Part shown: positions 663-61,360 of the stretch, piece by piece
How the letters are laid out: each line of letters opens with the position of its first letter
Numbering within the stretch: the stretch's first letter is position 1
Virus record (IMG/VR): IMGVR_UViG_3300029922_000017
Span: 32,001-96,000 of that record
DNA from: a virus
Reading direction: 5' to 3' (one strand)
DNA length: 64,000 nt
Made by a program: the position numbers and the translations under genes
The notes under the pieces: generated by a model
Databases searched by the model: none
Seen by the model: only the letters and a program-made list of their open reading frames with translations
Told to the model about the DNA's origin: nothing

Positions 663-1334
663 TTAAAATTTATAGATTCTACCTTTCATCCATCCTTGAG
701 ATATATACAAGTCCAGTTCCTCTTTTTTTATCTTTTTATTTAATTTTTGTTTCGTTGAGTATATCCAACATGTTCCATATTGTGAATTTAATTTTCCTAT
801 TCTCTGAGATGCTTTTATTGATTGCTTATCCTTTGTTTCTTGAGTATGTTTACGACCAGACCAATGATGTCCATCTCGACTGAACTTCTCTTTTAAAGCG
901 GCTGACACTTTTATTTTCCACTCTTCCCATAATCCCTTCTCTATAAGATATTTCTTAACTTCCCTACCATTCCACAAATTTTGTTTTCCATGAGTTTCAT
1001 CTCCAATTCCCGGATATAAATTTTTACCAGTCGAATTTGCGTGTTCCCATGTTCCTTGACCTCCGAGAATAAGATTATATGTATTTTCAGATTCTACGAA
1101 TATAGCATTAACTATTTCTTTTTCTTTATCATACATTGCTTCGGAAGAATCGAATACAAATAAAATTTCTTTTTTAAAATTTTCAATCCCATATTTTGCA
1201 ATTGACCGTTTAAGTAAAGTGCCAGACCCAAGATATTCATCATTTATATTTTTTGTCTTGTGAATGCCAATATAAATTTTATTATTTATAATATTGGTAG
1301 TTTTATATACTGTATATTTATAGTTCGAGTCCAT
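663..1334 (-). CDS. GIY-YIG (Seg-like) homing endonuclease with NUMOD3 repeat
   Basis: YTVYKTTN...KIYIGIH...YLGSG motif; GRKHTQETK NUMOD3-like motif; start moved to ATG 1334, which follows TATTTATA. Confidence 0.9.
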   Translation of the reverse strand: MDSNYKYTVYKTTNIINNKIYIGIHKTKNINDEYLGSGTLLKRSIAKYGIENFKKEILFVFDSSEAMYDKEKEIVNAIFVESENTYNLILGGQGTWEHANSTGKNLYPGIGDETHGKQNLWNGREVKKYLIEKGLWEEWKIKVSAALKEKFSRDGHHWSGRKHTQETKDKQSIKASQRIGKLNSQYGTCWIYSTKQKLNKKIKKEELDLYISQGWMKGRIYKF

Positions 1335-1388
1335 GAATATAAATATGGACTCGAACATCGAAACTGTAATTTATTTTCGATTAATTTC

Positions 1389-1463
1389 TGGCTCCGAGGG
1401 CAGGTTCTGCCCCTGCACCATCTTTCTTAACAGGAAAGTGGACTACTGTTATCCCACCTCGGA
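1389..1463 (-). tRNA. tRNA-Asn(GTT), atypical T-loop
   Basis: Acceptor TCCGAGG/CCTCGGA-GCCA; anticodon arm CTTTC-CTGTTAA-GAAAG; T-loop GGCAGAA. Confidence 0.85.
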
Positions 1464-1500: not shown

Positions 1501-1660
1501 AGGCCTCAATGACTGGACTCGAACCAATACCACGAACAGATATAGCCCGTGCGCTACCTACTATTAATAATTTCTGTGCTTACTTCATCATCCTTATTAC
1601 GTAATAATAGATGCCTTCATCCACATACTCGATACTAATAGCAATTACACCACATTGAGA
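1501..1660 (-). ncRNA. tRNA-like RNA with ~80-nt structured insertion in the D-loop
   Basis: Acceptor CTCAATG/CATTGAG; T-arm ATTGG-TTCGAGT-CCAGT; insert ~1561-1641 closed by CTATTAGTA/TATTAATAG; non-canonical anticodon loop; no CCA. Confidence 0.65.
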
Positions 1661-1738: not shown

Positions 1739-1970
1739 ATTGAATTACAAAATCATGTTACGGATAGCAGTTATACAGGAACACTGTTGTCCTACACATC
1801 AATGAGATTTCCGTGCTGTATCACACTCTCAAATGGATTTTGTAAATTGTTTTCTACTTTATAATGTAAAGGCTTACTCACCAGCAAACGAGGCCAGTGG
1901 TTGGGATTCCAACCCATTACAACCGTAGCATCAGCCGTTTTTTAGTTATCGGTTCATTACTAATAGAAAT

Positions 1971-2056
1971 TGGTGGATGCTAGGGACTTGAACCCTTTCT
2001 TTCAACTAAGTTATAGTTGATGTGCTTCCTTGGAATCTCACCTACACCAAGCAACC
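1971..2056 (-). ncRNA. tRNA-like RNA with non-canonical anticodon arm
   Basis: GGTTGCT/AGCATCC-ACCA acceptor; GGG-TTCAAGT-CCC T-arm; enlarged D-loop; TCAACTA-TAACT-TAGTTGA arm. Confidence 0.65.
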
Positions 2057-2062
2057 ATAAAT

Positions 2063-2140
2063 TGGTTTTGGACACAGATTTCATACTGTAAAAACTCCCC
2101 AACAGAGAGTGGTGTTATGAATATTAACACTAATCCAAAA
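2063..2140 (-). tRNA. Divergent tRNA-Asn(GTT)-like
   Basis: TTTTGGA/TCCAAAA-CCA; ACTCT-CTGTTGG-GGAGT arm; degenerate T-loop TATGAAAT. Confidence 0.55.
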
Positions 2141-3016: not shown

Positions 3017-3610
3017 TTAAATTTTAATATTATAATTTTTACACCATTTTCTTACTGCATTATCACTTACCCCGAATTTTTTCCCTATTTGTGTCATTGG
3101 AAGATTTTTAATCATTAATTCTAATTCGTTTTTTAATGGATGAACACATTTCCGTTGTCCATTAGCTCTACATTTATGAGAACAAAATTTTTGTTGAAAC
3201 GTTTTAGTATTAAATATTGAATTGCATGTTGGACATGTATGAGTATAATATTTTGGATTTGCAATATGTATTTTATTTTTCCAAGGAATGTTGGAAACTA
3301 TTAATTTTCTTCCGTCATAGTTATTTACTCTATTTAGAAATTCTTCGGTATTGTTATCTGCATGATGTATCATATGACAATTAGCACATAACAAATCACA
3401 CTTTTCTACTTCTGCCCAATACTTTTCCCAATTTGTCGTGATTGCGCTGGACAATCCAAATTCTTTTTGGGATGGGTCACGATGATGAAAATGAAATGCA
3501 GCTATGTTGCCACTCCACCCGCATCTTATGCATATTCCACCTTTTAATTTTACAGCTTCACGTTTTAATAGAAACCGTCTTATTTTTGTATTGTATGATG
3601 ATTTTGTCAT
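3017..3610 (-). CDS. HNH homing endonuclease with Zn-finger and C-terminal HTH
   Basis: GGICIRCG...FHFHHRDP...KCDLLCANCH; C-terminal IGKKFGVSDNAVRKW HTH; start ATG 3610 after TATTTATA. Confidence 0.9.
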   Translation of the reverse strand: MTKSSYNTKIRRFLLKREAVKLKGGICIRCGWSGNIAAFHFHHRDPSQKEFGLSSAITTNWEKYWAEVEKCDLLCANCHMIHHADNNTEEFLNRVNNYDGRKLIVSNIPWKNKIHIANPKYYTHTCPTCNSIFNTKTFQQKFCSHKCRANGQRKCVHPLKNELELMIKNLPMTQIGKKFGVSDNAVRKWCKNYNIKI

Positions 3611-3666
3611 ACCTATAAATATAGCTAAACAATAAAAGAATAGCAATTATTTTTAAGTTCGAATAA

Positions 3667-4240: not shown

Positions 4241-4328
4241 TGGTCAGGCGGATGGGCGTCGAACCCACATGAAGCTTTCGCTACCAGATTCACAATCTGG
4301 GACATTAACCAATTATGCTACCAGCCTG
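4241..4328 (-). tRNA. tRNA-His(GTG) with long variable arm
   Basis: CCAGA-TTGTGAA-TCTGG; variable hairpin AGC-GAAA-GCT; discriminator A, no encoded G-1. Confidence 0.85.
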
Positions 4329-4415: not shown

Positions 4416-4430
4416 ATTAAAAATATTCAA

Positions 4431-4516
4431 TGTTATAGTTGGATTCGAACCAACGAAGATATTTCTACCTTATCCCATACACGATGGGACAACTTCAACC
4501 ACTCGTTCATATACCA
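4431..4516 (-). tRNA. Class II (Tyr-like body) pseudo-tRNA with non-canonical loop
   Basis: T-arm GTTGG-TTCGAAT-CCAAC; long variable arm; TCCCAT-CGTGT-ATGGGA; no encoded CCA. Confidence 0.6.
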
Positions 4517-4560
4517 TTGATTTTTACAAATTTACTAGTTAACATTTCACTTTGTAAATT

Positions 4561-4653
4561 TGGCACCTCGTATTAGAATTGAACTAATATTAACGGAATG
4601 ATTACCGCATCTAATTTTGGAGATTAGTGCCTTACCGGTCGAGCCAACGAGGT
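4561..4653 (-). tRNA. tRNA-Trp(CCA) with long variable arm
   Basis: CTAAT-CTCCAAA-ATTAG; variable hairpin GCGG-TAATCATT-CCGT; ACCTCGT/ACGAGGT-GCCA. Confidence 0.85.
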
Positions 4654-4856: not shown

Positions 4857-5471
4857 TTATAAATATTTTTTCAATTCTTCAATGCATTTGATTACATTTG
4901 CTTTTACTTCTTTTGCCGTGAATCTTACAATCGTCCAGCCTTGTGATTTACTAAATATATCACGACGAGCATCAATTTTTTTAATCTTTTCCGATGTATG
5001 AGTTCCACCATCAACTTCAACGTCTATTTTTTTATCTACAAACGCAAAATCGTATTCATAGATTCCATTTCTGAATGCATACGTCCATCCAGTTATATTA
5101 GATGCTATCAAAGCATTCTCAAAGACTTGTTCTGGATATGATTTTCTAGATGAATGATTTATCAAATATGGAACTTTATCAGGATGTTCTGTTAAATATT
5201 TAATTCTAGCTTCGGAAATTTTTTGCTTAGTTTCTTCGGAATGTTTTTTTAAACCTCGTCCATTTTTTCGGGATAATTTATTCGCTGCTGATGTATTTCG
5301 AGTTGATTTAAATCGTCCAGACCTTATTGCGTTAAATATTACTGATTGTCCTGCTCCAAAATACGACGATATTTCTCGCCAAGTATGCCCCGCATCATAG
5401 TAAGATTGGATTTCATTCCAGTCATATTTTGATTTGTTGTTATGTCTGTAATTCTGAGGGCGTCGGGGGAA
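4857..5471 (-). CDS. PD-(D/E)XK (Vsr/DUF559-like) homing endonuclease with HTH/NUMOD3; canonical start missing
   Basis: YEYDFAF...IDVEVDGGTH...DARRD...GWTIVRF; frame open to 5471 (DWNEIQSYYDAGHTWREI...KKHSEETKQKIS) with no in-frame ATG. Confidence 0.7.
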   Translation of the reverse strand, partial: FPRRPQNYRHNNKSKYDWNEIQSYYDAGHTWREISSYFGAGQSVIFNAIRSGRFKSTRNTSAANKLSRKNGRGLKKHSEETKQKISEARIKYLTEHPDKVPYLINHSSRKSYPEQVFENALIASNITGWTYAFRNGIYEYDFAFVDKKIDVEVDGGTHTSEKIKKIDARRDIFSKSQGWTIVRFTAKEVKANVIKCIEELKKYL

Positions 5472-5540: not shown

Positions 5541-5624
5541 TGGTGCTGCCGATGGGACTCGAACCCATGTTGTTTAAATACCGAGTTAAAAGCTCGGTCC
5601 AGTCGCCGCTATGGAAACGACAGC
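5541..5624 (-). tRNA. tRNA-Lys(TTT) with extended variable region
   Basis: CCGAG-CTTTTAA-CTCGG; ~12-nt variable region; T-loop TTCGAGT; CCACCA. Confidence 0.88.
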
Positions 5625-12345: not shown

Positions 12346-12764
12346 TTTGTCAACTAATAAATGTCAATGCTCTCATCCACGTGGAATGTTCCGATTTTAG
12401 TCGGGATTGTCTTTTTAGTGGAGGTGAGGTCGGTTTATGGGCATTCCGGAAATGTAATATTGGGCATTTGCAATGTTCAATGTTCTGGAATAGTTTTTCT
12501 TGTTTTGTTGTCATGGTTAAAGAATACCACATAACAAGCCAAATAGATATAAGGTATTATACCCATGGATTTGGATATTCAATTTCCATCCTACGTTTCA
12601 TTTTTTTAATTATTTGGACAAGACCTTTGCGGTGAGACACTCTAACATCTTTAATATAATCTTCTTCTTTAATGAGTGGTATAATACGACAATATTCGTT
12701 TAATATATCATAGATAAATTCATATTCTACAGCAGTTAAACTTCCTTCGTCTTTATTTTTCATA

Positions 12765-13475
12765 TTATCTTTTTTCAACATAACATGGAATACGAGCATA
12801 TTCCAATGAATATTCTTTACACATCTCCAAGGCTTTTCTATGAGCAGAACAGGCTTCGTCAATGTTATCTGATTGTGCCAGTGCTTTTAATTTCTTTATC
12901 TTGTTAAATACGTCAAGAGTTACATTTTCATATATCAACGTCTCTAATTCAGGTTCGTTGGTCCCGCCGATGTCGTCTAACGAAGTATTATTTCGCAATT
13001 GTTGATTGACTGCGTGGCGAGTTGAATTGTGGGTCTCTTCGTAAATATCATTTAATGTCTGGCGCAAGTGAGCATCATTCTCAATAATATCATCTTCGGA
13101 TTTATAGGTCGAAGTCAAATATCCGTTTAAAATATCCCGCTGTTCATATAGTCGTTTTCCATATACTTTATCATCATTCGACTCTTGCAATAAAAAGTAT
13201 AACCAATTTAATATTGGAGTAGAACGAGCGGGGACAAATTTTCCATATGATGATAAAATCTGGTCGTCGTCCATTCCCTTGCTTCTTCCCTCGCTTAATA
13301 AATTTCGCTTTAATTTGTCCCCCTCCTCAATTTCTTTTTCATACTTTTGAGAATATGTTTGTGCCGAGGAGAGTATTTTAGTCTTAATTTCTTTTGTCTC
13401 TACCACTTTGGCGGCAAGACGTTTTTGAAAATTATCATTGTTTTTTAATAAACTGATTAGTGACGTGTTACTCAT
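12765..13475 (-). CDS. Hypothetical protein with DUF2786-like C-terminus; paralog of 16066-16761
   Basis: KIKKLKALA.S.N..EA.SA..KA..MCKEY; long identical blocks with the paralog (TPILNWLYFLL, YGK.LYEQRD.LN.YL.STYKSED). Confidence 0.8.
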   Translation of the reverse strand: MSNTSLISLLKNNDNFQKRLAAKVVETKEIKTKILSSAQTYSQKYEKEIEEGDKLKRNLLSEGRSKGMDDDQILSSYGKFVPARSTPILNWLYFLLQESNDDKVYGKRLYEQRDILNGYLTSTYKSEDDIIENDAHLRQTLNDIYEETHNSTRHAVNQQLRNNTSLDDIGGTNEPELETLIYENVTLDVFNKIKKLKALAQSDNIDEACSAHRKALEMCKEYSLEYARIPCYVEKR

Positions 13476-15176: not shown

Positions 15177-16050
15177 TTATATTCTTGTTTTATATTCGTT
15201 AAATATACTTAATATTCGACTCCAACGGTCTTCTGCTTCCAATTCCATTGCAACTACTTGTTTAATGGCAGCAATAAAATTAGATTTATTTTCGCTATCA
15301 TTATCCAATCTTTCAATTTCCATGTCTGCTTTGATATTACCATAATCAGTTATAATAAATTGTTCTTGAATATTATTTCCACTATATACTAGTAATGATA
15401 TACTAAATATAGGAGAGCCACTTAATATACATTCGTTCATTTGCTTTTCAATTGTGTTATAAGAAAACTCAAGACAATCTCCGGCAACTGGTGATTCTGA
15501 CAATGTAGCACCATCACCAAATACAGTAATAGTTTTAGTTACTTTACTACGAAGATATTTTAAAATCTCTTCCTTGGTGCCCGTTTTAATTGTTATTTCA
15601 TTCATAATTTTTTAATCTTTCTAAGGCTACTATGTCTAACTCAATATTTTTCTTTTTTTCCGATAAATAAATTTCAGATTCTGAAAAATCAAGTTGCAGT
15701 CCCAATTCTTTACATCGTTCAATCAATGGAATAAACCATTCTTCATCGGAGCAACTATAATCAAACGATCTTCCATGTGATATATTAATTCTCCCCGACC
15801 ACCAACTTAAATAAACGTCTCCAAAACAATATTGATGGTATTTTTCAATGGTTAAATCATCTAATTTTTTCTTAAATTCTGCATCATCACATTTATCATC
15901 GCAATATACAATATGGTTTAACCAAGAAACCTTAAATATACAATTCTTTCGAATTATAGGAAGAATAAGTTTTAAATTTTCCTCTCGTTCTCGATCTCTT
16001 AAAGAGATTATGTCTCGCTTTAGTTGTGCTATTTTATCAGTGGTTAACAT
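15177..16050 (-). CDS. Two hypothetical proteins (15177-15605, 15598-16050)
   Basis: Overlapping co-oriented ORFs. Confidence 0.7.
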
Positions 16051-18433: not shown

Positions 18434-19745
18434 CATGAACTACCCATCCCCTAAAGGAGATGGGTTTCCTCTTTCATCCAACTCTTTTTGAGTTGTCCAG
18501 AGGCTACTTCGGGTTGTCCCAACCCTAGTTTTTTGATATTGTTTGCTGCTAAAATGTCTCTGTCATGTGTTACTTTACACATCGGACAAGTCCATTCTCT
18601 ATCTTTCAAAGTTAGAGAATGATTTATGTATCCACAAGAACATAATTTGGATGATGGTTCAAATCGTCCAATTTGGATGAAGTTCTTTCCATACCAATCA
18701 CATTTGTATTTCAAAATGTTGGTAAACGAATTCCATCCTACATCAGCAATTTGTTGATGTCTCATTTTTTCAAGGAAACGATATTCGTCTCTTTCATCAA
18801 CATCTTTATTTTCCATCATATCCTTTGTAGATAGAGTTTCCATACAAATTGTCTTCACTTGGTTATCGTGTGTCAACTTATGACTTAACTTGTGGTGGAA
18901 ATCTTTTCTACAATTGGTTATTTTTTCGTGTGTTTTAGCAACCTTTATTCTTTGTTTGTTTCTATTATTACTTCCTTTTGTTTTCTTTGATAATTGTCGT
19001 TGTTGTTTCTTGAGTTTTTTGAGAAATCGTTTTAATGGTTTAGGATTTTCAATCTTTTCTCCGTTGGAGAATGTAGCAAAGTGTTTCAATCCCAAATCAA
19101 TTCCAATGGTTGTTTTTTCATTTACTTTTGGATTGGATGGAAGTTCTTTCCCATCTTCAACCAAAATAGAAATGAAGTATTTGCCTGTGGTAGTTCGTGA
19201 GACATAAGACGAAGATATGTCTCCCTCAAATTGTCTGTCAAAGACACACGTAATTCCTCCAAGGAACTTTGGAATGATTACTTTTCCTTTTTCAAAATCC
19301 ACTTTAGTATTTTGTGGAATACGAAACTTTTGGTCATTCCTCTTACATTTGAATTTTGGATATGCTACTTTCTTTTTGAAAAATGAAGTGTATGCTTTAT
19401 CCAAATCCTCAAGTTTGGACTGGATAGAAAGAGAACCGACTTCGGCAAGCCAAGGTTGTTCACCCTTCTTCATTTTTGGAAGTTCTGCTTGAAGTTCGTA
19501 TCTTGAGAGATTTGTTTTATCTTTTTGGTAGGCTTCCATTTTCTTACCTAATGCCCAATTCCACACAAATCTTACACATCCAAAATGCTTCTCCAAAAGA
19601 ACTTTTTGTTCCTTGTTTGGATATATCCTATATTTGAATGCTCGTATCACAACAATACATATCATTGACTTTTAGAAAACATCAACTTATTTTCTAAATT
19701 GTGTCAATTCATCCCACCCGCTAAAGCAAGTGGGATTTCTTGCCA
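18434..19745 (-). mobile_element. IS200/IS605-family (IS1341-type, tnpB-only) element
   Basis: Subterminal hairpins with CTTTAG loops at ~19710-19736 (left) and ~18442-18465 (right, ending GGTAGTTCA); no tnpA. Confidence 0.85.
18451..19665 (-). CDS. tnpB: RNA-guided endonuclease TnpB
   Basis: HTH_OrfB N-terminus (AFKYRIYP...HFGCVRFVWN), RuvC D (IGIDLG), E (CMETL), D (DRDILAA), Zn finger. Confidence 0.95.
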   Translation of the reverse strand: MICIVVIRAFKYRIYPNKEQKVLLEKHFGCVRFVWNWALGKKMEAYQKDKTNLSRYELQAELPKMKKGEQPWLAEVGSLSIQSKLEDLDKAYTSFFKKKVAYPKFKCKRNDQKFRIPQNTKVDFEKGKVIIPKFLGGITCVFDRQFEGDISSSYVSRTTTGKYFISILVEDGKELPSNPKVNEKTTIGIDLGLKHFATFSNGEKIENPKPLKRFLKKLKKQQRQLSKKTKGSNNRNKQRIKVAKTHEKITNCRKDFHHKLSHKLTHDNQVKTICMETLSTKDMMENKDVDERDEYRFLEKMRHQQIADVGWNSFTNILKYKCDWYGKNFIQIGRFEPSSKLCSCGYINHSLTLKDREWTCPMCKVTHDRDILAANNIKKLGLGQPEVASGQLKKSWMKEETHLL

Positions 19746-20089: not shown

Positions 20090-22746
20090 GACGCCATCTG
20101 CAAATCATCATTCCCATATGCTCCCATGTAAGTTGCGTCATAATCATTTATAATATAATTTAATAATGAGGTTAGTGTTGGTAGATGTTTGACACTTCCC
20201 GATTTAAAATCTATACGAACACTGAAATTGGGATTTATGAGAATGGAGTCGGAATTAATTTTATTATGGTATTTATTATTGGAAGTATTCCATATAAATC
20301 CCTTCTCGGTCAAATATTGTTCATTGGTAGGACTTAATTTTTTACCGCCTACTTTTCCAGTTGATTGTTTATTGGTTGGAACTGGTGTTTTCCCAATAAA
20401 TCCATTGTCATCATAATTATCGGCTATATATTGGGTCATATCATTAATTGGCTTACTCAATTTAATTCCGGCAAATTGTGCCGATACCAATACTGATTTA
20501 TCATTATTAAAGAATGTAACGGTATCATTATTCTTTCTATGTTTATAATAAGTTATACCGCCATTATTTAATACTTCAAATCCACGGGACACCATTCCCA
20601 TTTCATCTCCATCCGTTAAACGTATGGATTTTGGAGGTGTATTCAATCCAACGTGTAGAGTATAATCTGAACTTGAGGTTGAATTTGGAGGAATGACCGA
20701 TGGTTTTTTAGTATACATCTGGGCAGTTGTAGAAGTTGTGCCTCCATATATATTGGACGCATATGTATTTCCGCCATAATATGGGTCCCAATTACCATTA
20801 ACATCATAATGTCCTTTGGTGTGTTGGTCGGGACTCGCCTTCTGTGTAAGAATGGGCGTTGACGGAGGGGGCGGATTTAAACTATAGTCTGCATTATGTA
20901 TTTGTGTCGGTGTTAATGTATGAAATTTTAATTCGGTATTTTTCTCGGAACATCTCTTGAATAAGTCGTCAAAGTTATTAAATGTCTCTATATACGCCAT
21001 ATCATATCTAATTCCAATTGCATATGTCCCATCAGTAAATGCCGCCGCAGTTAGCATTTTCGGTTCGGCATTACCATCCGTATCTACGACATTAAAATTG
21101 GCAAATTCCAGTCGTTCGAAATCCGATGGGCGAATATTAATGGTTAAAAATTTAAGTTTTTGTTCTTTTGTAAAGTCAGTGACGGCTCGACGAGCGGCAT
21201 ACATCGTATATCGAGGCAATTTTGTAATATTGTCACCATGTTCTTTTTTAAATTTTTCAATTGCTTCATTAAAATCATGGAACACCTGTGCATCGGAGTC
21301 ATCGTCTGTGTTTATAGTTATGATGTTATTTTCGTGAATTTTTAAGTTATATTTTAGTATTTTAATTTGGTTGTCTTTATTTTTATATTTCACGCTGGCA
21401 CTATAATTCGTCCCATCCATGGTATTAAAATCTAAAGAGTCTAATATTTTTTTCTGCTCCGGAGTGGCGTGTATAGCAGGTGAATTTATATATTCTTCCA
21501 TCTTTCGCTCATCTTCCGGATTACCCGGTAAATATACCAAACACCTATTGATTAATTGTTTTATAACGGGCGAAACATCTTCCAAATATCTGGCAACGTG
21601 AGTTACTCTGGCACGTCTATCCAAATCCCGTTGAGGAATAAATAACCCTCCCTTATTTAACATAGGACCGGAATTATGTGCTAAATCATAAATGTGGTCA
21701 ATAGCAGCCGATATTTTTTCGTAATTATGAGATTGTAATTCGGGCATTAACTTAATAAAGGCAGTCGCTCCAGTTCCCCATGCTGGTCCACCATACGAAC
21801 TTTCGCTCCATGCAATTTTGGAATAGGCATTTTCAATGTCTTTCCAAGTTAGTTTGGAGTTATTAATTGCATGATTTATTTTAGCCACCACTTTTGAACT
21901 TATCTGTCCACCAACCGAATAATCATCCTCGGTTAATAGACATATTTCGTTTATGAAATTCTCATTTGTGCTTTCCGAGTCCCAGAAGGGGTCATATTTT
22001 TTCCAGTAATCATCTTCGGTGTCATCGGTTGGTTCTGCATCGGAAAGTTCTGGGTCTTCTTCCGGTTTATATTCATTATCTGGTTTAGGTTCGATTTTGT
22101 CTAGGTCATCGGTAGCATCTGGTTCTTTTTCGGGTTCTTCCGGCTCCGGAACATCTCCAGTGCCAACATAATTATTATCATACAATGCGGAGAACTTCAG
22201 GAGTCGTTTGACCGACTCTTCTTGTCCTGTCATACTCGGCAAATATGTTTTTACAAGTTTATTAAACCTTTCTTTTGAAATTGTCGTTTTGTTTGGTTGT
22301 TTTTCCAGATAAATTGTATTTCTAAATGATAGCCATTGATGTGATTTATTAAAAATATGCCTTAACTCTTGGACTAATGCCATTCTCAAATATCCTGACA
22401 ACTTGGTTCCCAATATTTTTGTAACTTGTTCGAATACGTCATCAATAATAACTCTTAATTTATGAGGAGCAATTTTACCACCCATCATAGGATATTCAAC
22501 ATCATCCCAATTTGTCCCCGCCGCAAATCCAGCACCAAAATTCGGGTCGGTCTTTGCTGCATGGACTTTTGCACCGGTTGACATGGGGAGTGGCGTTCCA
22601 AGAATACGATGTAAGTATTCCATGGCATAAAAATCGTAAAATATACGTTTGGAAGCAGTAGTATCACCCGTTTTCAGGAGATTTATTTTCGGAGGTGTAT
22701 ATCGCAATCTCTCAACCAAGAGAGAGGCTAACAAAATTCGACTCAT
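20086..22746 (-). CDS. Large multidomain protein, probably virion/head-associated
   Basis: 886 aa; MSRILLASLLVE start after TATTTATA; acidic linker; YGGPAW...IDHIYDLAHNSG..LNK segment; C-terminal repeats. Confidence 0.7.
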   Translation of the reverse strand: MSRILLASLLVERLRYTPPKINLLKTGDTTASKRIFYDFYAMEYLHRILGTPLPMSTGAKVHAAKTDPNFGAGFAAGTNWDDVEYPMMGGKIAPHKLRVIIDDVFEQVTKILGTKLSGYLRMALVQELRHIFNKSHQWLSFRNTIYLEKQPNKTTISKERFNKLVKTYLPSMTGQEESVKRLLKFSALYDNNYVGTGDVPEPEEPEKEPDATDDLDKIEPKPDNEYKPEEDPELSDAEPTDDTEDDYWKKYDPFWDSESTNENFINEICLLTEDDYSVGGQISSKVVAKINHAINNSKLTWKDIENAYSKIAWSESSYGGPAWGTGATAFIKLMPELQSHNYEKISAAIDHIYDLAHNSGPMLNKGGLFIPQRDLDRRARVTHVARYLEDVSPVIKQLINRCLVYLPGNPEDERKMEEYINSPAIHATPEQKKILDSLDFNTMDGTNYSASVKYKNKDNQIKILKYNLKIHENNIITINTDDDSDAQVFHDFNEAIEKFKKEHGDNITKLPRYTMYAARRAVTDFTKEQKLKFLTINIRPSDFERLEFANFNVVDTDGNAEPKMLTAAAFTDGTYAIGIRYDMAYIETFNNFDDLFKRCSEKNTELKFHTLTPTQIHNADYSLNPPPPSTPILTQKASPDQHTKGHYDVNGNWDPYYGGNTYASNIYGGTTSTTAQMYTKKPSVIPPNSTSSSDYTLHVGLNTPPKSIRLTDGDEMGMVSRGFEVLNNGGITYYKHRKNNDTVTFFNNDKSVLVSAQFAGIKLSKPINDMTQYIADNYDDNGFIGKTPVPTNKQSTGKVGGKKLSPTNEQYLTEKGFIWNTSNNKYHNKINSDSILINPNFSVRIDFKSGSVKHLPTLTSLLNYIINDYDATYMGAYGNDDLQMAS

Positions 22747-22787: not shown

Positions 22788-23192
22788 TGGTGGAAATGCT
22801 CGGAATTGAACCGAGGTCTTGAATACTAATTCATAACGATACTACATGGTTATTTCATTTTAATTTAATCTTGATTTTTTTAATGAACAATACATTTCAA
22901 GCATTGATAATTTATTGAGTTATCAACGATCATATAATTTTAACTATATGCGGTTTACTCACTATTAGAGCAATAAGAATTTTAATGAGTATCCAGTCTT
23001 ATTTCGGCAACTAGACCAATTCTAATTCGGGCGTATTGATTTCTTCATTCAGAAAGAATGAAAAATCCAACGCTGCAATCTGCGCTAGGCGGTTTGCATT
23101 TGGTTTTTAATTATATTTTTAACGAGGCCATATAATAAACCCTCCCCATGCATCGTTATGTCAAAGAATTCGGTCGATACCATTACATTCCC
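22788..23192 (-). ncRNA. ssrA: tmRNA
   Basis: GGGAATG/CATTTCC-ACCA acceptor with G3-U70; GGTATCGAC 5' motif; T-arm CTCGG-TTCAATT-CCGAG; helix CATAACGAT/ATCGTTATG; tag ORF 23097-23011. Confidence 0.93.
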
Positions 23193-42355: not shown

Positions 42356-42425
42356 GGTGCCAATTGTCTAGAGTAATTTCTTTATAAGAAATAAGTTCTT
42401 GGTTAGAATCCAAGTAGCACTACCA
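42356..42425 (+). tRNA. tRNA-Ile(TAT)-like with reduced D-arm
   Basis: ATTTC-TTTATAA-GAAAT; CTTGG-TTAGAAT-CCAAG; ACCA. Confidence 0.6.
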
Positions 42426-50892: not shown

Positions 50893-51273
50893 TTATAGTT
50901 TAACCATTCCAGTTGAAGTAGAATAATAGACATCAGTAATACCAAACCGTTTAATTATGGATTGGCAACCTCCACATGGTTTACTCATGGCAATCTGTCC
51001 TTCATTATTGTGCCGGATAACAATCATAGAATATTTTGATAAATCATCCTGTTGCATTTTCAAACAACTGTCCAATTCTGCGTGAATTCCAACCGTCTCA
51101 GTATGGTAAGGATGATATTTATTGAAGGGATGAGTGCGATTTTTATTAAATCCAATCTTTACTATTTTACCCTTAAACACAATAAAAGCTACATGACAAC
51201 TCCGCATTGATTGAACCGTAGGATGGAGAGCTTTAGCAATATCAATGGCTCGGTTTAATGTTCTCAAATTCAT
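50893..51273 (-). CDS. Cytidine/dCMP deaminase-like protein
   Basis: HAE and SKPCGGC motifs; VYYST. Confidence 0.88.
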   Translation of the reverse strand: MNLRTLNRAIDIAKALHPTVQSMRSCHVAFIVFKGKIVKIGFNKNRTHPFNKYHPYHTETVGIHAELDSCLKMQQDDLSKYSMIVIRHNNEGQIAMSKPCGGCQSIIKRFGITDVYYSTSTGMVKL

Positions 51274-60262: not shown

Positions 60263-61360
60263 TCACTTTTTTGTAACCTGATAAAGTAATTTCATCAACT
60301 GATTTCTATCTAAAGACTTTCCATCAAGCAAGGTAAACACCATACCGGAACGATTGTTATTTTCCCCACCATAGCTAGATATGATACGCTGTGCCTGTTC
60401 ACGGCGAGTTGGTAAGGTTTTAATAGAATCAATAAAATTATTCATTCCATTGACAATTTTTAATACGTCTTTATACCCATCTATAATCGTTGATATAAAT
60501 CCCCGGACCATGGTAAAGCACTCGTAATCAAATTTTTGAACCAATTGAGTCTCAAACTCTTGATATGATGGCATACCGAATTCAAAAAATAATTCAACGG
60601 TATTTTCAAAGGTGGCTTCCGACTTAAAACGATGAAGTTTTAAATATTGAAATGCTTTGGATTTATGTATAAATTGGTCTTTACTAGAATAAATACAAAC
60701 TCCCTCCCGGTTCTCCCACTTCTCAACATTAAAAACTAGGTCAGTAATGTCATTAAAAGTATAGGTTTCGGGACGTAACAATCCTAAATTTTTAGCAATT
60801 AAATCTAAATCAGATTGCGTCCAATAGGAGTAATCGGAATGATTGACAATACCAATTAAAGTAAATTTTGGGATGTCGCCATACGATAACACAATCCTAT
60901 TGAGTGGGGAGGTCCACTCAAAGATATAAGACCTATCCCAAGTAGGAGTAGTATTCATATCTATTTTAGGAAGTATTTCCGATTTAAATATCTCTATTTC
61001 ATGCCCATTTAATTCCATGTTAGTAGCATCTACTGAACCACGGGTGCGAATTATATAATTATCTTTATAAGAAGTTACAGACAATAATGACCCGTCAAGT
61101 TTTTCAACCACTGTGCAACCTTTCAACGAAGACGGCGGCGGAAATATATCGGGCTTTTCTCCCAGATTTGTAAATTTTTTAAATCCGGCAGAAATTAATT
61201 CCCCATTATGATTCCATAAAGAAGACCGATAAATTACATTATCTTTGGTCCAAACAGCACCAATCTGTTTCGGATTTACAAGATAACACAATTCGCCGTT
61301 AATTATGTGTTCGTTGCAATAAAATTGTTCTCGGTCTATTTGAGAGATGTCGATTTTCAT
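60263..61360 (-). CDS. RNA ligase, T4 Rnl1-like
   Basis: Nucleotidyltransferase motifs: KKFTNLGE, EKLDGSL (I), YIFE (III), REGVCI (IV), HKSK..QY (V). Confidence 0.9.
   Translation of the reverse strand: MKIDISQIDREQFYCNEHIINGELCYLVNPKQIGAVWTKDNVIYRSSLWNHNGELISAGFKKFTNLGEKPDIFPPPSSLKGCTVVEKLDGSLLSVTSYKDNYIIRTRGSVDATNMELNGHEIEIFKSEILPKIDMNTTPTWDRSYIFEWTSPLNRIVLSYGDIPKFTLIGIVNHSDYSYWTQSDLDLIAKNLGLLRPETYTFNDITDLVFNVEKWENREGVCIYSSKDQFIHKSKAFQYLKLHRFKSEATFENTVELFFEFGMPSYQEFETQLVQKFDYECFTMVRGFISTIIDGYKDVLKIVNGMNNFIDSIKTLPTRREQAQRIISSYGGENNNRSGMVFTLLDGKSLDRNQLMKLLYQVTKK

What the first reader, a model, noticed from the sequence alone, without database searches (positions are those of the whole stretch)
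1501..1660. tRNA-like RNA carrying an ~80-nt structured insertion in the D-loop
Seen: a tRNA scaffold (acceptor CTCAATG/CATTGAG, canonical TTCGAGT T-loop) is split in the D-loop (…GGTGTAATTG | GTAGCGC…) by an insert closed by a 9-bp stem, with an internal hairpin (CATC-TATTATTACGTAATAAG-GATG). It is too short for a group I intron and is not in the anticodon loop. Inference: a tRNA scaffold displaying an RNA domain, or a non-canonical intron needing endonuclease plus ligase (an Rnl1-like ligase is encoded at 60263).
Basis: partly seen in the sequence, partly recalled or inferred. Interest (0 to 1): 0.65.

Follow-up and report, generated by a model that had tools for sequence, protein, structure and literature searches.

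The report
Phage tRNA-like gene with D-loop insert
A large peat phage carries, inside its tRNA gene array, one tRNA-shaped gene whose D-loop is interrupted by about 81 extra bases; it has no relatives elsewhere, so it may be a working oddity or a broken tRNA, but related phages hold a separate, clearly conserved family of tRNAs with a folded domain at almost the same spot.

Summary
On the minus strand, window 1659..1502 forms a cloverleaf with canonical spacing: a 7-bp acceptor stem, U8, a 4-bp D-stem, a 5-7-bp anticodon stem and a standard T-arm. An 81-84-nt hairpin sits in the D-loop. Standard detectors miss it.

It is an orphan. I found no homolog in the phage's own 139-kb record, in four related jumbo-phage records, or in pattern scans of the viral and genome collections. 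The insert folds no better than shuffled sequence (z -1.4). The anticodon loop lacks U33 and a purine at 37, and CCA is not encoded. A second register (class-II-like, anticodon AAU) cannot be excluded; it also puts the insert in the D-loop.

No splicing endonuclease or RtcB was found, and the insert has no bulge-helix-bulge, so the intron idea lacks support.

Related phages carry four distinct 184-186-nt tRNAs with a conserved, covarying 108-110-nt domain between U20 and A21. Rfam has no match to it. The candidate's insert is not homologous to that domain.

Best reading (0.42): a processed ~158-nt tRNA-like RNA that keeps the extra arm. Main rival (0.33): a disrupted pseudo-tRNA.

The parts
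1502..1659 (-). Whole tRNA-like gene (158 nt, through the encoded CC; the next base is T, so CCA is not encoded).
   Evidence: Sequence; fold; my scan. ARAGORN reports it only with the intron option at a lowered threshold. It does not report it at default, nor with introns at the default threshold. Rfam gives no tRNA hit.
1653..1659 (-). Acceptor stem 5' strand (CTCAATG), followed by U8 G9 at 1652-1651.
   Evidence: Pairs 7 of 7 Watson-Crick with 1505-1511.
1642..1650 (-). D-stem 5' strand GTGT (1650-1647) and the 5' part of the D-loop, AATTG (1646-1642).
   Evidence: The same TGGTG.AATTG start is seen in this phage's tRNA-Arg genes.
1561..1641 (-). 81-nt insert. It is 84 nt (1641-1558) if bounded by comparison with the 8-nt D-loop of the relatives' tRNA-Ile(UAU). 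Closing stem: 1641-1633 with 1569-1561.
   Evidence: Coordinates; fold. It is unique in the 139-kb record. Its fold is not more stable than shuffles.
1589..1613 (-). Central hairpin of the insert (CATC...GATG, with a palindromic core and an ACGT loop).
1551..1560 (-). 3' part of the D-loop, TAGGTA, which holds the only contiguous GG (candidate G18 G19). It is followed by the D-stem 3' strand GCGC (1554-1551).
   Evidence: register A, -38.3 kcal/mol, close to the MFE of -38.6.
1533..1549 (-). Anticodon arm in register A: stem CGGGC/GTTCG (extendable to 7 bp) and loop TATATCT. This gives anticodon UAU with A33 and C37. In register C the same hairpin would be a long variable arm.
   Evidence: It resembles the anticodon region of the relatives' tRNA-Ile(UAU) genes.
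1505..1528 (-). T-arm (ATTGG / TTCGAGT / CCAGT) and acceptor stem 3' strand (CATTGAG). The discriminator G is at 1504.
   Evidence: It shares 17 identical nucleotides with the T-arm and acceptor region of this phage's tRNA-Leu(UAG).
1561..1579 (-). Alternative register C elements: a second possible D-stem partner GCAC (1579-1576) and the anticodon-like loop TTAATAG (1567-1561, anticodon AAU).
   Evidence: ARAGORN on deletion variants prefers this register: aat 100 versus tat 25 at 107%, and the only 3 calls at 110%. The constrained fold is -33.5 kcal/mol.
60263..61360 (-). Rnl1-like RNA ligase gene.
   Evidence: PF09511 at E = 7e-11. Present in 3 of 5 related records.

Best explanation
This is a non-canonical tRNA-like gene derived from a tRNA of the phage's own array. 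Its closest relatives are the tRNA-Ile(UAU)-type genes of related phages and the phage's own tRNA-Leu(UAG). An 81-84-nt hairpin sits in the length-variable 5' part of the D-loop, just before the GG that docks on the T-loop.

Inferred mechanism:
- It is transcribed with the neighbouring tRNAs.
- It is cut out by RNase P and 3' processing, which need only the intact acceptor/T-arm.
- It is completed by a CCA-adding enzyme.
- The insert stays in the mature ~158-nt RNA as an extra arm projecting from the elbow.

The anticodon loop lacks U33 and a purine at 37, and the elbow is encumbered. So the RNA more likely acts as a tRNA mimic (a partner, decoy or substrate for a tRNA-binding factor) than as a routine decoder.

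Shown: the anatomy, its place in the array, and the existence of conserved D-loop domains in the relatives' tRNAs. Inferred: transcription, processing, retention of the insert, and any function.
For: Anatomy:
- All four stems are intact, with canonical spacing 7/2/4/loop/4/1/5/7/5/4/5/7/5/7.
- Register A is essentially the minimum-free-energy fold (-38.3 versus -38.6 kcal/mol).
- The flanks AATTG and GTA together equal the 8-nt D-loop of the 95-nt tRNA-Ile(UAU) genes of relatives G001 and G004. The insert is therefore a clean interruption.
- A15-U48, U8-A14 and a contiguous GG remain available (the tertiary-pair rules are recalled).
- The interior is more tRNA-like than 40 of 40 shuffles.

Context:
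- The gene lies 38 nt upstream of tRNA-Asn, on the same strand as 13 neighbouring tRNA genes.

Precedent for retained D-loop domains in this phage clade:
- Four distinct 184-186-nt tRNAs carry a 108-110-nt domain between U20 and A21.
- In that family 98.1% of cells are paired, and 20 of 52 pairs show changes on both sides. 0 of 500 shuffles reach this, and slid controls give 35-43% paired. That alignment was fitted to the model.
- All four encode CCA.

Related genes also have odd anticodon loops:
- The G001/G004 tRNA-Ile(UAU) genes also lack U33.
Against: - It is an orphan. I found no homolog, so there is no conservation or covariation for the insert.
- The insert's fold is no better than chance.
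- The R1 model of the relatives' family scores the candidate at 27.5 bits. Plain tRNAs without any insert score 20-62 bits, so the two inserts are not homologous.
- The anticodon loop lacks U33 and R37.
- CCA is not encoded, whereas 29 of 36 ARAGORN tRNAs in this record encode it.
- Contigs from four other peat samples are identical across the gene wherever they cover it. They therefore say nothing about selection.
- Homing endonuclease genes and degenerate tRNA-like remnants surround the gene.
Confidence: 0.42

Rival explanations
1. It is a pseudogene. A tRNA gene was disrupted by an insertion or an unequal rearrangement in a region rich in homing endonucleases, and it is now without function. 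The stems are intact only because the event is recent.
For: - Orphan status: no homolog found.
- Non-canonical anticodon loop, and no encoded CCA (29 of 36 others encode it).
- No Rfam tRNA hit even at E = 10.
- The insert is no more stable than shuffles.
- Homing endonuclease genes lie close by: GIY-YIG at 663-1358, HNH at 3017-3646 and 3-488, and DUF559 at 4857-5165.
- Other degenerate tRNA-like pieces lie next to it at 1971-2056 and 2063-2139.
- A relative shows a tRNA 5' fragment duplicated around an ORF (L217:15947-16204).
- A near-duplicate of the D-loop end plus D-stem 3' strand (GTAAGCACA at 1583-1575 and GTAGCGCA at 1557-1550) hints at an internal rearrangement.
Against: - All four stems and the T-loop are perfect.
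- The insert lies exactly in a D-loop site that tolerates extra length, and it is closed by its own helix, which spares the tRNA core.
- No other copy of the insert exists that would mark a mobile element.
- Relatives prove that D-loop domains can be selected in tRNAs.
Confidence: 0.33
2. It is an intron. The insert is removed from the precursor and the halves are joined to give a 74-77-nt tRNA. Removal would be by an unknown endonuclease plus the phage Rnl1-like ligase, or by self-cleavage.
For: - In-silico removal leaves a D-loop equal to that of the relatives' tRNA-Ile(UAU) genes.
- ARAGORN calls tRNAs in many deletion variants: 137 as Ile(tat) and 221 as Ile(aat), out of 1897.
- An Rnl1-like ligase is encoded. 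It is present in both records that carry a tRNA with a D-loop insert (G000, G002).
Against: - There is no bulge-helix-bulge; the closing helix is continuous.
- No splicing endonuclease and no RtcB in any of the 5 records.
- No Rfam ribozyme or group I intron match at E up to 10. By recall, 81 nt is far below group I size.
- The ligase is also in G003, where no interrupted tRNA was found.
- The product would still have a defective anticodon loop in register A.
Confidence: 0.12
3. The cloverleaf has a different register (register C). The D-stem partner is GCAC (1579-1576), the anticodon arm has loop TTAATAG (anticodon AAU), and the hairpin at 1551-1531 is a long variable arm. The D-loop insert is then only 58 nt (1641-1584). 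This changes the anatomy, not the kind of object.
For: - ARAGORN scores this register highest: aat 100 versus tat 25 at 107%, and the only 3 calls at 110%.
- The loop has U33 and A37.
- The loop nearly equals TTAATAA and CTAATAA of the relatives' tRNAs with D-loop inserts.
- Relatives have class-II-like tRNA-Ile genes of 93-95 nt.
- MAFFT aligns their variable arm to this hairpin.
Against: - It is about 5 kcal/mol less stable than register A.
- The anticodon stem has only 3 A-U pairs, 1 G-U pair and an A-G mismatch.
- There are two extra bases after position 26.
- It destroys the 9-12-bp closing helix.
Confidence: 0.25

Closest known systems
tRNAs with a D-loop domain in related jumbo phages (found here; no published name known to me): L026:5478-5661 (= L027), L022:7379-7563 (= L005), L036:5646-5831, L006:12808-12993
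   Same: - Same phage clade, with tmRNA, ADP-ribosylglycohydrolase and a large tRNA array.
- A tRNA body with a large insert in the D-loop.
- Missed by ARAGORN and Rfam when full-length (0 of 4 called).
- Odd anticodon loops.
   Different: - Their insert is 108-110 nt, branched, and strongly conserved and covarying.
- It lies after G18 G19 U20, whereas the candidate's insert lies before the GG.
- They encode CCA.
- The candidate scores only 27.5 bits on their model, like plain tRNAs, so it is not a member.
Archaeal and eukaryal non-canonical tRNA introns at D-loop and D-arm positions, cut at bulge-helix-bulge motifs (PMC3241643, PMC3978253, PMC4090602: search listings and abstracts only)
   Same: An intervening sequence at a non-anticodon position of a tRNA gene.
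   Different: - No bulge-helix-bulge.
- No splicing endonuclease gene in any of 5 records.
- The host is bacterial, judged from the phage-encoded tmRNA.
Group I introns in bacterial and phage tRNA genes
   Same: They interrupt a tRNA gene in a bacterial setting. One likely example was seen in passing at L359:2050-2314.
   Different: By recall, they sit in the anticodon loop and are about 200 nt or longer. There is no Rfam group I match here.
Irregular and class-II-like tRNAs and allo-tRNAs in phage and Acidobacteria tRNA polycistrons (Mukai et al., PMC5389517: abstract and passages read)
   Same: Polycistrons of irregular tRNAs in phages and soil bacteria. This window also holds His, Trp and Lys tRNAs of 84-93 nt with long variable arms.
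   Different: Those variants change the acceptor/T-stem lengths or the variable arm. In the passages I read, none has a D-loop insertion.
tRNA-like stable RNAs in phage tRNA clusters (T4 species 1 and 2 RNAs) and tRNA mimics such as YrlA or tmRNA. Recalled from memory, not checked here.
   Same: RNAs longer than tRNAs that are co-located or processed with tRNAs through a tRNA-like end.
   Different: No sequence or Rfam relation was found. Their extra parts are not D-loop inserts.

Membership tests
Canonical tRNA (Rfam RF00005 / ARAGORN) | Scores above the model threshold as one contiguous cloverleaf. | tested here: not met
   No RF00005 hit at the gathering threshold, at E up to 5 in 9 kb, or at E up to 10 in 181 nt. 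ARAGORN at default does not report it.
Canonical tRNA (Rfam RF00005 / ARAGORN) | 7-bp acceptor stem, U8, 4-bp D-stem, 5-bp anticodon stem, 5-bp T-stem and a TTCRANY T-loop. | tested here: met
   Read directly and reproduced by the MFE fold.
Canonical tRNA (Rfam RF00005 / ARAGORN) | 7-nt anticodon loop with U33 and a purine at 37. | tested here: not met
   Register A has loop TATATCT (A33, C37). Register C would meet this feature, but with a poor stem.
Bulge-helix-bulge (archaeal-type) tRNA intron | Two 3-nt bulges separated by a 4-bp helix at the exon-intron borders. | tested here: not met
   The borders lie in a continuous 9-12-bp helix.
Bulge-helix-bulge (archaeal-type) tRNA intron | A splicing endonuclease is available. 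| tested here: not met
   PF01974 found in 0 of 5 phage records; the control rang in 4 archaea. The host genome is unknown.
Group I intron | Match to the Rfam group I model and its core. | tested here: not met
   No hit at E up to 10.
Relatives' D-loop-domain tRNA family (model R1) | Model score well above that of plain tRNAs. Members score 168-219 bits; plain tRNAs score 20-62. | tested here: not met
   27.5 bits.
C/D-box RNA | C and D boxes with a significant model match. | tested here: not met
   Only SNORD24 and sR30 at E = 8.5 and 2.6, far below their gathering scores. No CUGA D box in the insert.
Miniature mobile element (MITE-like) | Several copies with terminal inverted repeats. | tested here: not met
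   A 9-bp imperfect inverted repeat exists. There is no second copy in 139 kb of the phage's own record or in the relatives' loci.

The most novel reading that the evidence does not exclude
Jumbo phages of this peat and freshwater clade make a previously undescribed kind of RNA: tRNAs whose D-loop carries an added folded domain that stays in the mature molecule. One conserved 108-110-nt version exists in four relatives. The window's gene would be a second, independently acquired example. The added arm would give a tRNA body a new task, for instance binding a phage or host factor, or escaping or decoying tRNA-targeting defences. Alternatively it would define a new bacterial-world tRNA intron type at the D-loop.
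Probability: 0.3. Interest if true: 0.8.

Novelty: new variant of a known kind. Interest (0 to 1): 0.52.

Why it matters
As far as I could find, large additions in the D-loop of bacterial-world tRNAs are not on record. Four literature searches and one paper read in passages turned up none, and Rfam 15 has no family matching either the candidate or the relatives' D-loop domain.

If such RNAs are made and kept, phage tRNA arrays are a source of tRNA-scaffolded functional RNAs. That would bear on phage-host conflict over tRNAs, and on natural precedents for tRNA scaffolds used in RNA engineering.

It also matters for annotation. Standard tRNA finders miss these genes entirely. They missed the candidate, 4 of 4 relatives' family members, and a tRNA-Asn at 1392-1463.

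For the window's gene alone the stakes are lower, because it may be a dead tRNA.

Tried and rejected
- **Expression data.** No RNA holder is listed among the 17 public runs, all peat or soil DNA, so expression and splicing could not be examined.
- **Population variation.** I laid contigs from 4 DNA runs on 1350-2350. They are identical to the window wherever they cover the gene, with no joint that skips the insert and no indels. This gives no population signal either way.
- **ARAGORN's own reading.** It proposes an 80-nt intron at the 5' edge of the anticodon loop, Tyr(ata). I rejected it: the constrained fold is -23.1 kcal/mol against -38.3, the D-stem is made of 3 G-U pairs, and the D-loop has no GG.
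- **Homolog searches, all empty.**
  - The 3' 21-mer found 0 matches in the viral collection and 0 in genome contigs.
  - blastn against INPHARED phages hit only a tRNA-Ala.
  - BLAST against five related records gave a best E of 0.11.
  - BLAST against all fetched loci found nothing.
  - A gapped D-arm/T-arm pattern found 56 stretches, 0 of them with 7 of 7 acceptor pairing.
  - Neighbours of 78 relatives of the adjacent GIY-YIG endonuclease held nothing.
- **Earlier notes of this scan.** Nothing to show.
- **C/D-box or K-turn idea.** It came from the GGATGA and GATGATGA motifs. The Rfam hits are insignificant and there is no D box.
- **Sarcin-ricin-like motif.** A possible pairing of AGUA (1584-1581) opposite GAA (1618-1616) is only a recalled consensus seen by eye.
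- **MITE idea.** No second copy.
- **Terminator-like call.** The scan flagged 1551-1531, but that is the anticodon hairpin itself.
- **More members of the relatives' family.** Three pattern scans plus a model search found only the two IMG/VR records already known. Genome contigs gave 0.
- **A second long tRNA-like type in relatives** (L036:5837-5991 and L006:12999-13149). The two sequences show no clear relation to the candidate.

Full report
**Setting**

The window is bases 32001-96000 of a 138,917-nt IMG/VR virus record, estimated 39% complete. DNA runs from peat metagenomes hold it. It encodes a tmRNA at 22788-23192 (-). Across the whole record ARAGORN finds 36 tRNA genes, 32 of them in one minus-strand array.

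Homing endonuclease genes are scattered through the array:
- GIY-YIG at 663-1358.
- HNH at 3017-3646 and 3-488.
- DUF559 at 4857-5165.

The finding lies in this array, 38 nt upstream of a tRNA-Asn at 1463-1392. That tRNA-Asn was only seen in the permissive Rfam run (46 bits).

**The observation**

Read on the minus strand, window 1659..1502 has these parts:
- A 7-bp Watson-Crick acceptor stem.
- U8 G9.
- D-stem GTGT paired with GCGC.
- A 5-bp anticodon stem, extendable to 7 bp, with a 7-nt loop.
- A 4-nt variable loop.
- A T-arm with loop TTCGAGT.
- Discriminator G, then CC.

Between AATTG and TAGGTA of the D-loop lie 81 nt (1641-1561). They are closed by a 9-bp helix, which extends to 12 bp with G-U pairs. 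The unconstrained fold gives exactly this picture.

Standard detectors miss the gene:
- ARAGORN at default does not report it.
- ARAGORN with introns at the default threshold does not report it.
- Rfam does not report it at the gathering threshold, at E up to 5, or at E up to 10 on the 181-nt stretch alone.

**Chance controls**

Acceptor pairing alone is weak evidence. My scan for a T-arm plus a 7-bp acceptor stem plus U8 at 60-260 nt gave 24 hits in the record. Two were long: the candidate (155 nt) and a 204-nt hit that looks like chance. In 378 kb of other phage tRNA regions, about 20 long hits arose from adjacent tRNAs or by chance.

The interior, however, is more tRNA-like than random. Of 1897 in-silico deletion variants, ARAGORN called 478 at the default threshold and 130 at 107%. 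This exceeds all 40 interior shuffles, whose maxima were 325 and 24.

Folding energy is unremarkable. The whole RNA has z = -1.22 and the insert alone has z = -1.37. So the interrupted tRNA is real, but the insert being 'structured' is not demonstrated.

**Which cloverleaf**

Three registers were compared under constraints:
- **Register A** (D-stem partner GCGC, anticodon loop TATATCT): -38.3 kcal/mol, against an MFE of -38.6.
- **Register C** (D-stem partner GCAC at 1579-1576, loop TTAATAG, and the 1551-1531 hairpin as a long variable arm): -33.5 kcal/mol.
- **ARAGORN's anticodon-loop intron**: -23.1 kcal/mol. I rejected this one.

Register A has canonical spacing and places UAU at positions 34-36, but with A33 and C37. 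Register C has U33 and A37, and ARAGORN prefers it. Its anticodon stem is poor, though, and it breaks the closing helix.

Both A and C put the insert in the D-loop. I favour A, at roughly 2:1.

**Origin**

The nearest tRNAs to the body are the 93-95-nt, class-II-like tRNA-Ile(UAU) genes of relatives: L201:9168-9262, L209:11466-11560 (-) and L186:5582-5674 (-).
- The G001 and G004 genes have the D-loop AATTGGTA. This equals the candidate's flanks AATTG plus GTA.
- They share the run CGCACGG.CTATA with the candidate.
- They also lack U33.

The T-arm and acceptor 3' strand share 17 identical bases with this phage's own tRNA-Leu(UAG). The phage also has a canonical tRNA-Ile(UAU) at record position c[20656-20730], which ARAGORN mislabels as Tyr(ata).

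**No homolog**

- The insert is unique in the 139-kb record.
- BLAST found nothing in five related records (best E 0.11).
- BLAST found nothing in any fetched locus.
- Exact and gapped pattern scans of the viral and genome collections were empty or gave only adjacent tRNAs.
- Contigs from four other peat samples are identical across the gene, with no insert-free form.
- No RNA run is listed.

**An unexpected parallel**

Relatives were reached through the ADP-ribosylglycohydrolase gene, at 55-72% identity. They carry tRNAs of 184-186 nt with a 108-110-nt branched domain exactly between U20 and A21 of the D-loop. The four distinct members are:
- L026:5478-5661 (= L027).
- L022:7379-7563 (= L005).
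- L036:5646-5831.
- L006:12808-12993.

What supports this family:
- RNAalifold on two members gave 15 compensatory pairs.
- A covariance model (R1) then found the other two at 168 bits.
- On the four sequences, 98.1% of cells pair and 20 of 52 pairs change on both sides. 0 of 500 shuffles reach this, and slid controls give 35-43%. The alignment was fitted to the model, and n = 4.
- Removing the domain in silico turns 4 of 4 into ARAGORN tRNAs: Ile(aat) twice, Leu(caa) and Leu(taa). 0 of 4 are called at full length.
- All four encode CCA.
- Rfam has no match for the domain.
- Pattern scans found it nowhere else.
- Of five whole records, only G002 has it.

The candidate scores 27.5 bits on R1, within the 20-62-bit range of plain tRNAs. 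Its insert is a simple rod rather than a branched domain, and it lies before the GG rather than after U20. It is therefore an analogue of this family, not a member.

**The intron idea**

The Rnl1-like ligase is real (PF09511, E = 7e-11). It occurs in G000, G002 and G003, but not in G001 or G004. So both records with tRNAs carrying a D-loop insert have it, and so does one record without any. With n = 5 this is not informative.

Against the intron idea:
- No splicing endonuclease and no RtcB in any of the 5 records.
- No bulge-helix-bulge.
- No ribozyme or group I match.

**Verdict**

| Reading | Confidence |
|---|---|
| Non-canonical tRNA-like gene whose D-loop hairpin is retained in a processed ~158-nt RNA; more likely a tRNA mimic than a decoder | 0.42 |
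| Recently disrupted pseudo-tRNA | 0.33 |
| Intron | 0.12 |

The evidence for function is indirect: intact stems, a clean insertion at a length-tolerant D-loop site, and a selected precedent in relatives. The evidence against is also real: orphan status, a defective anticodon loop, no encoded CCA (29 of 36 others encode it), and no excess fold stability.

**Literature**

Four searches (listings and abstracts only) and passages of PMC5389517 gave no description of D-loop insertions in phage or bacterial tRNAs. Irregular tRNA polycistrons in phages and Acidobacteria are known (PMC5389517). Supplements were not consulted.

Noticed in passing
L026:5478-5661, L027:13122-13305, L022:7379-7563 (= L005, L076), L036:5646-5831, L006:12808-12993 (= G002:240207-240392 -): A family of 184-186-nt tRNAs with a conserved, covarying 108-110-nt branched domain between U20 and A21 of the D-loop. 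CCA is encoded. The anticodon loops are CTAATAA, TTAATAA, CCTCAAAAA and CCTTAAAAA. There is no Rfam match, and it was found only in this phage clade.
   Followed up: yes
L036:5837-5991 and L006:12999-13149: A second long tRNA-like type (151 and 147 nt plus CCA) lies directly after the D-loop-domain tRNA. The two share the motifs GGAAAGTCAAA and GGG.TGTAAA. Their structure is not resolved from two sequences.
   Followed up: partly
L006:12691-12745 and 12748-12802; also weak hits at L026:5337-5391, L009:11651-11705, L029:1805-1859, L037:1522-1576: 55-nt elements made only of an acceptor stem, a short linker, a T-arm and CCA. They look like minihelices and sit inside the tRNA arrays.
   Followed up: no
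window 1392-1463 (-): tRNA-Asn(GTT) with a non-canonical T-loop (GGCAGAA). It was missed by ARAGORN and by the Rfam gathering run over 64 kb, and found at 46 bits in the permissive run.
   Followed up: partly
window 1971-2056 (-) and 2063-2139 (-): Further degenerate tRNA-like sequences. The first ends in CCACCA, has an 18-nt D-loop with the same GTGT/GCAC D-stem, and has a 7-bp anticodon-like stem. Neither is called by ARAGORN or Rfam.
   Followed up: partly
window 1866-1972 (-) versus L007:19383-19492: An element that directly follows a tRNA 3' end in both phages. About 57% of columns are identical, including AAAAAACGGC and a T-arm-like hairpin whose stem differs in a compensatory way. BLAST did not find it significant.
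   Followed up: partly
window 4241-4328, 4429-4517, 4561-4653, 5541-5624 (-); record c[21982-22070]: His, His, Trp, Lys and Cys tRNAs of 84-93 nt with long variable arms. This is class-II-like architecture for amino acids that normally use class I tRNAs, and may relate to the allo-tRNA-like irregular tRNAs of PMC5389517.
   Followed up: no
L201:9168-9262, L209:11466-11560 (-), L186:5582-5674 (-): Class-II-like tRNA-Ile(UAU) genes of 93-95 nt in three related phages, lying outside the main arrays. The G001 and G004 copies have C33.
   Followed up: partly
L026:6546-6970 and L036:8181-8645: GOLLD RNA (173 and 163 bits) lies inside the relatives' tRNA arrays. None reached the threshold in the window.
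   Followed up: no
L002, L003, L004, L005, L006, L009, L010 (e.g. L002:11768-11842): Amber-suppressor tRNA(CTA) lies just downstream of the ADP-ribosylglycohydrolase gene in relatives, hinting at TAG recoding there. None was seen in the window's own record.
   Followed up: no
L217:10942-11056 and L217:15947-16204: A 115-nt tRNA-like gene with a ~40-nt hairpin in the anticodon region, and a tRNA 5' fragment duplicated around an ORF.
   Followed up: partly
window 1319-1360: A perfect long inverted repeat containing TTCGAGTCCAT on both arms lies directly after tRNA-Asn and before the GIY-YIG endonuclease gene.
   Followed up: no
window 18451-19665 (-): A TnpB / IS605 OrfB-like gene (PF01385, PF07282) inside the phage.
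   Followed up: no
window 42356-42425 (+) and record c[15748-15826]: Two more tRNA-like sequences that ARAGORN does not list. The first scores 24 bits on R1 and lies next to tRNA-Arg; the second is a 79-nt hit of my scan that ends in CCA.
   Followed up: no
window 50893-51273 (-): A small cytidine/deoxycytidylate deaminase-like ORF (PF00383, E = 5e-5, below the cut-off). It is of possible interest given the tRNA genes with A34 anticodons in this clade.
   Followed up: no
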